64,000 bases of DNA from Escherichia coli (GTDB lineage: Bacteria; Pseudomonadota; Gammaproteobacteria; Enterobacterales; Enterobacteriaceae): assembly GCF_024502345.1 (NCBI RefSeq), contig NZ_JALDNN010000001.1; one strand, 5' to 3'. Position numbers: made by a program. This document shows, in pieces, positions 50,201-53,200 of the stretch (position 1 is its first letter; the number at the start of each line of letters is the position of its first letter).

Positions 50201-53200
50201 GTCTATCAATCTGCATTCTCACCGAACTTACTCGAACGCCCGCGTCTGGAAAGCCATCTACAAAAACTCCTGACCGATGCCGTGAAAATGCGTGGGCTGA
50301 TTGCGCCCGCCAGCAAAGAAACCCGTATTCCAAAATCGATATATGAAGGTATCCAGACCATTAATCGCAATCTGGTTTGTATGCTGGAGTTGCAAATCAA
50401 TGCATACTGGGCCACGCGCCCCAGCCATTTCGTGTTATTGAACGCGCAAAAACTTCGTGATACCCAGCATATGATGCAGCAAATACTGCTGAGCCTTGTT
50501 CATGCGCTGTACGAAGGTAATCCGCAGCCGGTTTTTGCCAATACGGAAAAATTGAACGATGCTGTGGAAGAGCTGCGTCAGTTGCTGAATAACCACCATG
50601 ACCTGAAGGTTGTGGAAACACCAATCTATGGTTATGTGTGGCTGAACATGGAAACGGCACATCAGCTTGAGTTGCTATCGAATCTGATTTGCCGGGCCTT
50701 GCGCAAATAATTCCTGAACTTCAGAATCATCTTGCTGCTGCTTCGATTCAGCAAGGATAAAGGGTATGATAGTGAAAAGGGATAAAAGCATTGTCATCTG
50801 CGGCAGCTATGAGTAATGTTGGCCCTAACGAATAGCGGTTGCTTAAACGAATCCGACTCTCACATTATCAGGGGTATAAAAATGGAAACTACCAAGCCTT
50901 CATTCCAGGACGTACTGGAATTTGTTCGTCTGTTCCGTCGTAAGAACAAACTGCAACGTGAAATTCAGGACGTTGAGAAAAAGATCCGTGACAACCAGAA
51001 GCGCGTCCTGTTGCTGGACAACCTGAGCGATTACATCAAGCCAGGGATGAGCGTTGAAGCAATCCAGGGCATCATCGCCAGCATGAAAGGTGACTATGAA
51101 GATCGCGTTGACGATTACATCATCAAAAATGCCGAGCTCTCCAAAGAACGCCGCGATATCTCCAAAAAGCTGAAAGCTATGGGCGAAATGAAAAACGGCG
51201 AAGCGAAGTAATTCCCGTTTTATTCAATGAGGGTTGCCCGGCAACCCTCATTGCTCATTGATTCTTATTTGTGTATCACCGTCATCATTCTCATCTGAGA
51301 ACCAATCGAAATTAACAACAGCCTTCTTCTGTATGCAGCAAGGCAAAAAGTTCTGTAACTCCATTGTTATTAACTGCACTGGTTACTAACACGTTGTGCG
51401 CTCCAGCTTCCCGTAACCAACTTTTCACCAAAGATATTTGTTCCATGCTGGCTAAATCTGCTTTGGTTACTACTCCAATGACCGGGTGATTCATGGCCCG
51501 GTAGGGCGTTTTTACCTCTAATTCCTGCTTCAGCGCTGAGATTCCTGCTTGTTGCCGGAAAAGCAGGCACCTGCCGTCTGAACGGTATCGATCCGGAAGC
51601 GTATCTGCGCCATATTCTGAGCATACTGCCGGAATGGCCCTCCAACCGTGTTGACGAACTCCTGCCATGGAACGTAGTTCTCACCAATAAATAAGCGTCA
51701 ATACGGTGCTCCGTTGACGCTTACTTTAATCCGTTTTCTGAGCTTAGATTTTTCTGTTCCTACCCAGACCGTGGATTTGGAATTCATTTTTTGTCAGGTC
51801 AATGCTAATCGTTAAAACGGCCATAACGCACCTCCACTGGAAGGTTTATCAGTAATATCCTACCGTTGCTTCATGGTCGGGGCGTCCATTCCATTATTAT
51901 CGGTTTTCCTTTCTGTTTATAAATGAAAACGCCAGCTGTATTCAGGCTGGCGTCAGGGGAAATGAAGCCTGTTGAGTGAGATTCACCGGTTCTGGTGCAG
52001 AAGCTGCAGATGGCGCAGGGTAAGGACATCTTCTCTTGCCTGCTTAATACAGGACAACAGTGCTGTTTCTGTGGTTAATGGCACTATACCCTGCATCACT
52101 GCATTGTCTTACAGCAACTGGTGAGGGCTGGCATAAGTTGCCGGTGTTTCGGTAGAGTCACGGTCATCCACCACGCGGAGTGAATAACCGTTTTCAGCGG
52201 CCTTATTAATCAGTTCAGTGATATTAACACCATCAATGTCAACGACAATGTGCCCCATATCCAGCGCCTGTACGTTAACGCTGTCGGCTTCCAGTGTCAT
52301 CATTTCGCCTCCGGATACTTACCCAGGGTAATGTTATTTACCGTTCTGTAATTGTCGCGGGTCATCAGGCCGGTCGCCCTGCGAGCCCGGAGGATACCCG
52401 CTTACGCGAGAGCAATAAGTGGCTGGCCACCATTCTCGATACAAAACTCTGCTGAATAGCAGCGATTTTCCCAGCGTGGTGCGTCTTTTGCATTTTACTG
52501 GTTCTGAGTTATCAATTATCTGTTCACTAATGACTACTCTAAAAAGTTGTATCAATTTAAGTGATATAGGGAGTCTGGAGATTCACCCTTTTTGGTGATG
52601 AAGTTAACAATACCGCCAATTGCCTGTGAACCGTACAGTACGGAATATGGACCTTTCACTACCTCAACACGCTCCAGCGCAGACTCATCTATCAACAGTC
52701 CCACACCATAATTATCTCCGGCGCGCTGATAAGTTACCTCCTGACCATCAATGAGAATTAAAACACGGGAGGATGCTTCGCCACGAATGCGGATTTGTTT
52801 ACGGCCTGCCAAGGAGTTGTCTGTTATCTCTACTCCGGGGATGTCCTGCAAATTATCGGCTATGGAGGCATTGGTGGAGTTCTGCAATGTTTGTTGGTCA
52901 ATAACCTGTATAGTCGCCGGGCTTTCCCAAAGGTTGCTTGCCGAACGATTCGTGGTCACGACGAGCGTCTCTTCGTTGCTGATTTTTGTTTCTGAAGAAG
53001 TTGCGGTTGCAGTAGAAACTATCCCAGAAATGCATAATGACAGAGTGGAAAGGATATAAATTCGACAAGGTATATTATATAACATTTCATCCCTCATTAA
53101 TACAAAGTACAAATGATTGCTGTAATGATAATTATTTTCATTTATGTTCTCATATATCTATAATTATTGTCATCTTCATAAATTGTAAATATCAAACATT

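What the first reader, a model, noticed from the sequence alone, without database searches (positions are those of the whole stretch)
52109..52303. Orphan gene start with a strong ribosome-binding site
A canonical GGAGG-N5-ATG precedes a 64 aa reading frame whose N-terminus looks like the beginning of a folded protein and then breaks off. It is likely the 5-prime stump of a gene removed by the deletion that shaped this tract, but a small protein cannot be excluded.
Basis: seen in the sequence. Interest (0 to 1): 0.3.

Follow-up and report, generated by a model that had tools for sequence, protein, structure and literature searches.

The report
Known gene yeeW, a truncated remnant
The 64-codon frame is yeeW, a long-annotated E. 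coli cryptic-prophage gene of unknown function that encodes only the first domain of a larger protein family; here it is stranded by a deletion that removed its toxin-antitoxin neighbours, so it is real but ordinary.

Summary
The ORF at 52109-52303 (minus strand) is real. It is identical in protein and DNA to yeeW (b2006) of E. coli K-12 prophage CP4-44. It matches Pfam DUF5983_N at E=2e-29.

The GGAGG is there, but 4 nt (not 5) before the first ATG and 7 nt before a second ATG. It lies inside the 3' end of the toxin gene cbtA, whose TGA overlaps the yeeW ATG (ATGA).

Canonical family members are 162 aa, with an N domain plus a C domain. A second common form fuses the N domain in frame to the downstream DUF957 gene (140 aa). 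yeeW is that fusion cut by a TAA where fusion alleles have GAA. AlphaFold folds residues 1-48 confidently and leaves 51-64 disordered.

The truncation is old and shared with K-12 and over 3000 complete genomes. It was not made by the local deletion. That deletion (7.2 kb relative to K-12, junction 52392-52396) lies upstream. It removed flu, yeeR, yeeS, yeeT, cbeA and most of cbtA, leaving the ORF intact but without its operon.

Function is unknown: no solved-structure, defence-system or literature match was found. Most likely it is a decaying relic. Already known; low interest.

The parts
52109..52303 (-). yeeW ORF: 64 codons plus TAA at 52111-52109. It encodes the DUF5983 N-terminal domain (residues ~1-48) plus a disordered linker tail (51-64).
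   Evidence: ORF list; Pfam PF25638 E=2e-29; PGAP annotation yeeW / WP_000988599.1 in near-identical loci; DNA over codons 2-64 identical to K-12 b2006; AF2 model.
52308..52312 (-). Shine-Dalgarno GGAGG, 4 nt before the first ATG and 7 nt before the second. It lies within cbtA codons (GAG GCG).
   Evidence: Read directly from the sequence; conserved in the ESY002 allele (GGAGG), while the 2014C-4135 (GGGGG) and TW10828 (3-nt gap) alleles differ at this site.
52300..52396 (-). 3' stump of toxin gene cbtA: the last 97 nt, encoding ...ATGLMTRDNYRTVNNITLGKYPEAK*. Its TGA (52302-52300) overlaps the yeeW ATG as ATGA. This is the gene actually truncated by the local deletion.
   Evidence: blastn against TOK-001, D2 and K-12; annotation of cbtA directly upstream of yeeW; frame read.
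52392..52396 (.). Deletion junction with GGATA microhomology. It joins cbtA nt 279 to sequence 187 bp beyond yoeA fragment 2. [quoted passage not shown]
   Evidence: No place in 5,426 complete E. coli genomes covers 80% or more of a 111-nt query spanning the junction.
51983..52099 (-). Remnant of the downstream DUF957 gene. It is in the same reading frame as yeeW, separated by the TAA and 3 codons, and has lost 93 bp (31 codons) internally.
   Evidence: Alignment with the intact ESY002 locus; PGAP DUF957 pseudogene in D2 and TOK-001; in-frame translations.
52552..53112 (-). Upstream neighbour after the deletion: a truncated TonB-dependent receptor plug gene (yoeA). It is on the same strand as yeeW and is not interrupted by IS2 here, so it is a possible source of read-through transcription.
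   Evidence: ORF list; annotation in D2, TOK-001 and K-12; the 5-bp overlap of blast pieces at 52780-52784 marks the empty IS2 site.

Best explanation
The frame is yeeW, the last gene of the yeeRST-cbeA-cbtA-yeeW operon of the CP4-44-type island inserted between cobU and tmaR/yeeX in E. coli. In intact islands, the gene after the CbtA-family toxin starts at an ATG that overlaps the toxin's stop codon, behind a ribosome-binding site embedded in the toxin's last codons. It is therefore presumably made by translational coupling to the toxin (inferred). Its canonical product is a 162-aa two-domain protein (DUF5983_N plus DUF5983 C domain) of unknown function. In one lineage the C domain was lost, and the N domain plus linker became fused in frame to the next gene, DUF957, giving a 140-aa ORF. 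yeeW is that fusion interrupted by a GAA-to-TAA nonsense change. The K-12-type allele found here has in addition lost 31 codons of the DUF957 half. yeeW therefore encodes a small beta-hairpin/helix domain (residues 1-48) followed by a disordered linker. In this window a separate, strain-specific deletion removed the operon's upstream genes, including its promoter region, the antitoxin cbeA and all but 97 nt of cbtA. This leaves yeeW with its ribosome-binding site but without its transcription unit, without the upstream translation it was coupled to, and without its presumed partners. The most likely status is a decaying, probably poorly expressed relic rather than a working gene.
For: Identity: Pfam DUF5983_N at E=2e-29. 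PGAP names it yeeW in loci that are 99.8-99.9% identical. Codons 2-64 are identical in DNA to K-12 b2006. The exact protein is named YEEW_ECOLI and is seen on at least 1000 contigs.

Long form: a 162-aa protein with PF25638 plus PF19419 follows a CbtA-family toxin gene in strain TW10828. Nearly all of the best 120 homologue clusters are 159-163 aa with both domains.

Fusion form: continuous ~140-aa ORFs occur in five independent loci. The exact 66-nt stretch containing the GAA codon is in 478 complete genomes. The exact 140-aa protein is on 961 contigs. A divergent fusion (P0210) sits in the same context.

The stop is derived: stop-type tails (codons 50-64) show no DNA variation among 7 alleles, whereas fusion tails have pS 0.067.

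Stop/start overlap with the toxin gene is seen in all annotated loci.

Structure: residues 1-48 are confident and 51-64 disordered.

Local deletion.

Signs of decay: the DUF957 half has lost 93 bp. A common allele (59 aa, 429 contigs) lacks 5 residues (NITEL) that span the start of the domain's helix.
Against: The ORF is intact and carries a strong ribosome-binding site. The N domain is predicted to fold on its own. pN/pS in the N domain is about 0.57 in stop-type alleles and 0.50 in fusion alleles, so no relaxation is detectable, although power is low and alleles recombine. Whether the fusion arose from the long form by deletion is inferred from an alignment whose linker region aligns only weakly. 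No expression data were examined. A weak promoter-like site (52543->52515) and possible read-through from yoeA could still transcribe the gene.
Confidence: 0.75

Rival explanations
1. yeeW is a functional stand-alone small protein. The isolated DUF5983 N domain retains an activity, for example binding CbtA-family toxins or another island protein. It is kept by selection and could act in trans on paralogous toxins even after loss of the adjacent cbtA.
For: The ORF is intact in thousands of genomes. It has a strong ribosome-binding site. Residues 1-48 are predicted to fold confidently. The N domain occurs with two different C-terminal partners, which suggests an autonomous module. N-domain pN/pS is no higher than in fusion alleles. 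DUF5983 lies consistently downstream of CbtA and has been listed as a putative toxin partner (PMC10790755).
Against: The stop-type tail has zero diversity, so its prevalence is explained by recent common descent rather than selection. The other half of the broken fusion is visibly decaying. A frequent allele deletes five residues (NITEL) at the start of the domain's helix. No function is recorded in the literature; yeeW is listed as uncharacterized (PMC11551758). In this window the operon promoter region and the coupled upstream ORF are gone.
Confidence: 0.2
2. The frame is the 5' stump of a gene whose 3' part was removed by the deletion that shaped this tract.
For: There is a real strain-specific deletion nearby, and the ORF does lack the C-terminal domain of its family.
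Against: The same ORF with the same TAA is present in K-12 and in loci with complete flanks. The sequence downstream of the stop is collinear with K-12 through yoeF and tmaR. The deletion junction is 90 nt upstream of the start codon.
Confidence: 0.02
3. The TAA is bypassed by read-through, so that yeeW and the in-frame DUF957 remnant are made as one protein.
For: The two frames are in register in every allele examined, and sense-codon versions exist.
Against: The shared frame is explained by descent from a fusion gene. UAA is the most efficient stop codon in E. coli (established knowledge). The downstream half has lost 31 codons here. No read-through signal was looked for or found.
Confidence: 0.02
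4. The frame is a chance ORF behind a chance GGAGG, not a gene at all.
For: The motif count equals the chance expectation, and short ORFs are abundant.
Against: Pfam E=2e-29. There are 104 family representatives at 50% identity, and hundreds of 90%-identity clusters conserve the frame.
Confidence: 0.01

Closest known systems
YeeW (b2006, YEEW_ECOLI) of E. coli K-12 cryptic prophage CP4-44
   Same: Identical 64-aa protein and identical DNA over codons 2-64. Same downstream neighbours (DUF957 remnant, yoeD/yoeF, tmaR) and the same ATGA overlap with the cbtA stop.
   Different: K-12 has the full yeeRST-cbeA-cbtA operon upstream. Here only the last 97 nt of cbtA remain, joined to sequence next to yoeA.
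Canonical DUF5983 family proteins (162 aa, also named Aec77)
   Same: Same N-terminal domain (PF25638), about 70% identical over ~50 residues. Same position immediately after a CbtA-family toxin gene, with overlapping stop and start.
   Different: They carry the PF19419 C-terminal domain, and DUF957 is a separate gene with its own AGGA ribosome-binding site. yeeW lacks the C domain entirely.
DUF5983_N-DUF957 fusion ORF (140 aa; 'conserved hypothetical protein' in E24377A, 'Aec78' in some records)
   Same: Same N domain and the same linker (RD[S/A]TETPAT[Y/S]ASPHQL), with the same reading frame continuing into DUF957.
   Different: The fusion has GAA where yeeW has TAA, and its DUF957 half is complete. 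PGAP annotates these as a C-terminally incomplete DUF5983 pseudogene plus a separate DUF957 gene.
CbtA/CbeA type IV toxin-antitoxin module
   Same: yeeW is co-operonic with it and presumably translationally coupled to it in intact islands. DUF5983 has been flagged computationally as a downstream partner of CbtA (PMC7660256; PMC10790755; bioRxiv 10.64898/2026.06.09.728211).
   Different: No experiment links YeeW to toxin or antitoxin activity. In this window both cbeA and a functional cbtA are absent.

Membership tests
DUF5983 family (Pfam PF25638 + PF19419) | N-terminal domain PF25638 above the gathering score | tested here: met
   101.4 bits against a cut-off of 27, E=2e-29, profile positions 1-56 of 56.
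DUF5983 family (Pfam PF25638 + PF19419) | C-terminal domain PF19419 | tested here: not met
   There is no hit in the 64-aa protein, whereas it is present at residues 69-162 of the 162-aa form. yeeW is therefore an N-domain-only derivative, not a full-length member.
DUF5983 family (Pfam PF25638 + PF19419) | Gene lies directly downstream of a CbtA-family toxin gene with overlapping stop and start | tested here: met
   The cbtA 3' stump ends in a TGA overlapping the yeeW ATG. The same arrangement is seen in all comparison loci. The toxin gene itself is truncated here.
yeeW orthologue (K-12 b2006) | Sequence identity and conserved chromosomal position between tmaR/yoeF and cbtA in the cobU-tmaR island | tested here: met
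   Identical protein and codons 2-64. Collinear with K-12 2077847-2081000 at 98.95% identity.
CbtA/CbeA type IV toxin-antitoxin system | Intact toxin gene cbtA and antitoxin gene cbeA at the locus | tested here: not met
   Only 97 nt of cbtA remain and cbeA is absent. The locus is therefore not a toxin-antitoxin system.
CbtA/CbeA type IV toxin-antitoxin system | The protein modulates toxin activity or cytoskeletal polymers | not testable with these tools
   No experimental report was found, and no complex prediction tool was available.
Anti-phage defence systems (PADLOC) | Match to a defence-protein model | tested here: not met
   No PADLOC hit for the short or the long form.

The most novel reading that the evidence does not exclude
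DUF5983_N is an autonomous adaptor domain, always translationally coupled to CbtA-family toxins, that can be attached to different C-terminal modules (DUF5983 C domain or DUF957). Under this reading its stand-alone form, YeeW, is a working third component that tunes CbtA-type toxins in cis or in trans. It would then be retained in this strain because paralogous toxins elsewhere in the genome still need it.
Probability: 0.1. Interest if true: 0.35.

Novelty: already known. Interest (0 to 1): 0.08.

Why it matters
It matters little for biology at large. The finding resolves to a named E. coli K-12 gene from the uncharacterized "y-ome".

The one useful by-product is a clearer reading of what yeeW is. 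It is the N-terminal half of a broken DUF5983_N-DUF957 fusion, which itself appears to derive from a two-domain gene coupled to the CbtA toxin. This explains why annotation pipelines call the same locus a gene, a pseudogene or two genes in different strains.

It also suggests that any functional study of this family should use the 162-aa or 140-aa forms rather than K-12 yeeW.

Tried and rejected
- **Viral contig scan** with the protein returned only 3 near-identical loci, of no use for diversity.
- **A 16-mer scan of metagenome contigs** returned 120 loci (98 of them printed in the output), mostly chance matches in unrelated environments; about 13 of them carried the gene.
- **Selection test:** the yeeW-specific tail has zero variation among stop-type alleles, and N-domain polymorphisms are shared between allele classes. 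pN/pS therefore cannot separate a functional gene from a relic.
- **Model of the long form:** with a shallow alignment the N domain had pLDDT of only 29-56, so that model was not used.
- **Other libraries:** NCBIfam gave one sub-threshold hit for the 64-aa protein (archaeal ribosomal protein P1, E=0.11, 12.9 bits against a cut-off of 100) and none for the fusion or long forms; PADLOC gave no hit. PHROGs gave only weak, unknown-function hits. Rfam had no match in 50700-54800.
- **The ribosomal P1 lead:** that sub-threshold hit and one JGI name "ribosomal protein L12E/..." were treated as noise.
- **Engineered reduced-genome strain:** rejected. DGF-298 deletes yeeW altogether, and the flank differs from K-12 at 31 positions in 3155.
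- **Literature:** searches found no functional study of YeeW.

Full report
**Observation.** The minus strand of window 52303->52109 carries a 64-codon ORF ending in TAA. GGAGG lies at 52312-52308. It is followed by CGAA and ATG (52303-52301), a spacing of 4 nt rather than the 5 reported, and by a second in-frame ATG at 7 nt. The motif by itself carries no weight: GGAGG-N3-9-ATG occurs 10 times in the window against 8.8 +/- 2.9 in shuffled sequence. ORFs of this size are also frequent. The ORF is nevertheless real, because its product matches Pfam PF25638 (DUF5983_N) over the whole profile at 101.4 bits, E=2e-29.

**Identity.** The window is E. coli chromosome: sbmC, yeeA, tmaR/yeeX, then a 3.5-kb tract, then cobU-cobS. 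In near-identical loci, NCBI's pipeline annotates this ORF as yeeW, 'DUF5983 family protein' (WP_000988599.1; that allele differs from the window's product at one residue, N38K). It is annotated as yeeW, b2006, in K-12 MG1655, as the last gene after cbeA and cbtA in cryptic prophage CP4-44. The window's codons 2-64 are identical in DNA to K-12. The exact protein is on record as YEEW_ECOLI on at least 1000 contigs. A 217-nt query covering the ORF and its ribosome-binding site matches 4,631 of 5,426 complete E. coli genomes, 3,174 records at 99% identity or more. The literature lists yeeW only as an uncharacterized CP4-44 gene (PMC11551758) and as the end of the operon yeeRST-cbeA-cbtA-yeeW (PMC7660256).

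**The ribosome-binding site belongs to a coupling junction.** In the cbtA frame, the bases upstream of the start read ...ATGLMTRDNYRTVNNITLGKYPEAK, then TGA. The GGAGG is formed by cbtA codons, and the cbtA stop (52302-52300) overlaps the yeeW start as ATGA. Every comparison locus shows the same overlap of toxin stop and downstream start. That the downstream gene is translated by coupling to the toxin gene is an inference from this anatomy.

**What the local deletion did.** Relative to K-12, window 49243-52396 is collinear with 2081000-2077847 (98.95% identity). Window 52395-52784 continues at K-12 2070661-2070272. [quoted passage not shown] It also lacks the IS2 in yoeA and the IS5. Relative to the closest complete genome (TOK-001), the missing piece is 1,278 bp, with GGATA microhomology at 52392-52396. 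No complete E. coli genome in the collection spans this junction. The deletion thus ends 90 nt upstream of the yeeW start. The gene it truncates is cbtA, not yeeW.

**Is yeeW itself a stump?** In an older sense, yes. Three architectures occupy the position after CbtA-family toxin genes.

- **Long form.** This is a 162-aa protein with PF25638 plus the C-terminal domain PF19419, followed by a separate DUF957 gene. Nearly all of the best 120 homologue clusters of the long form are 159-163 aa with both domains. Some carry the K-12-type N terminus MMTLEADS...DMGH.
- **Fusion form.** This is a continuous ~140-aa ORF in which the N domain and a linker (RDATETPATSASPHQLPEDNTVIQSVMPL) run in frame into DUF957. 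It was seen in five independent loci. An exact 66-nt stretch containing the GAA codon is in 478 complete genomes. The exact 140-aa protein is on 961 contigs. A much more divergent fusion (P0210, 50% identical in the N domain) sits in the same context.
- **Stop type.** It has the same linker but with TAA where the fusion has GAA, giving 64-67 aa. In strain ESY002 the DUF957 half is still complete. In the K-12-type allele and in this window it has lost 93 bp in frame.

Among seven stop-type alleles, codons 50-64 show no nucleotide variation, whereas the N domain has pS 0.12. Fusion-type tails do vary (pS 0.067). This fits a single recent origin of the TAA allele from a fusion allele, with N-domain diversity brought in by recombination between island copies. 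How the fusion form relates to the long form (deletion of about 280 bp, or replacement) is inferred from an alignment whose linker region aligns only weakly.

**Structure and function.** With a 34-sequence N-domain alignment, AlphaFold2 gives block-mean pLDDT 86-92 over residues 1-40 and 74 over 41-50 (strands 8-13 and 19-24, helix 28-37). Residues 51-64 score below 50. Nothing similar was found:

- Foldseek against the PDB gave no hit below E=1.
- The PDB sequence search was empty.
- PADLOC had no hits and NCBIfam only one sub-threshold hit (ribosomal P1, E=0.11); PHROGs gave only weak hits of unknown function.
- Rfam found nothing in the tract.

The family is narrow: 104 representatives at 50% identity among 1.84 billion proteins. 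Two computational papers note that DUF5983 always follows CbtA and may belong with that module (PMC10790755; bioRxiv 10.64898/2026.06.09.728211). No experiment addresses it.

**Verdict on mechanism.**

- *Shown:* the identity of the gene; the domain content; the stop/start overlap with cbtA; the in-frame relation to DUF957; and the position and extent of the local deletion.
- *Inferred:* translational coupling; descent of yeeW from a fusion gene by a nonsense change; and loss of expression in this strain through loss of the operon's upstream region.

I judge yeeW here to be a decaying relic (about 0.75). Three things support this: the other half of the broken gene is eroding; a common allele deletes five residues (NITEL) spanning the start of the domain's helix; and in this window the operon and its partners are gone.

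A functional stand-alone N domain remains possible (about 0.2). The domain is predicted to fold alone, it occurs with two different C-terminal partners, and its pN/pS (0.57) is no higher than in fusion alleles (0.50). The test has little power, however.

**Novelty.** This is an already known, named gene in a known Pfam family, so interest is low.

Noticed in passing
window 52392-52396 (junction) and 52300-52396: The junction joining cbtA nt 279 to sequence beside yoeA has GGATA microhomology. No place in 5,426 complete E. coli genomes covers 80% or more of a 111-nt query spanning it. The source strain is therefore either outside that set (possibly Shigella or a draft genome) or carries a private deletion.
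   Followed up: partly
window 51983-52099 (-): The DUF957 remnant lies in the same reading frame as yeeW, 3 codons after its TAA, and has an internal in-frame 93-bp deletion. PGAP describes it as 'missing N-terminus', which the alignment with an intact copy does not support.
   Followed up: yes
L006 3488-3910 and similar loci (L020, L068, L115, L134): A 140-aa DUF5983_N-DUF957 fusion ORF is common in E. coli: at least 478 complete genomes, and the exact protein on 961 contigs. PGAP nevertheless splits it into a 'C-terminally incomplete' DUF5983 pseudogene plus a DUF957 gene. Annotation of this locus is inconsistent across strains.
   Followed up: partly
window 52552-53112 (-): The TonB-dependent receptor plug fragment yoeA is a continuous 186-codon ORF here. 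It lacks the IS2 insertion that splits it in K-12 and BL21. The 5-bp overlap of blast pieces at 52780-52784 corresponds to the IS2 target duplication site.
   Followed up: partly
window 51312-51668 (-) and 51234-51700: Remnants of an EutP/PduV-family gene (yoeF) and of a transposase (yoeD) sit between the DUF957 remnant and tmaR, as in K-12. The whole cobU-tmaR tract is a patchwork of gene fragments.
   Followed up: no
proteins P0263, P0300, P0301: These are long-form (159 aa) DUF5983 proteins that carry the K-12-type N terminus MMTLEADS...DMGH. N-domain alleles are therefore shuffled between long and short forms by recombination among island copies.
   Followed up: no
L018 2606-2971: A divergent (50% identity) DUF5983_N-DUF957 fusion with a shorter linker lies next to a CbtA-family toxin on a single short-read-assembly contig (Logan). 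It may represent an independent or ancient origin of the fusion architecture.
   Followed up: partly
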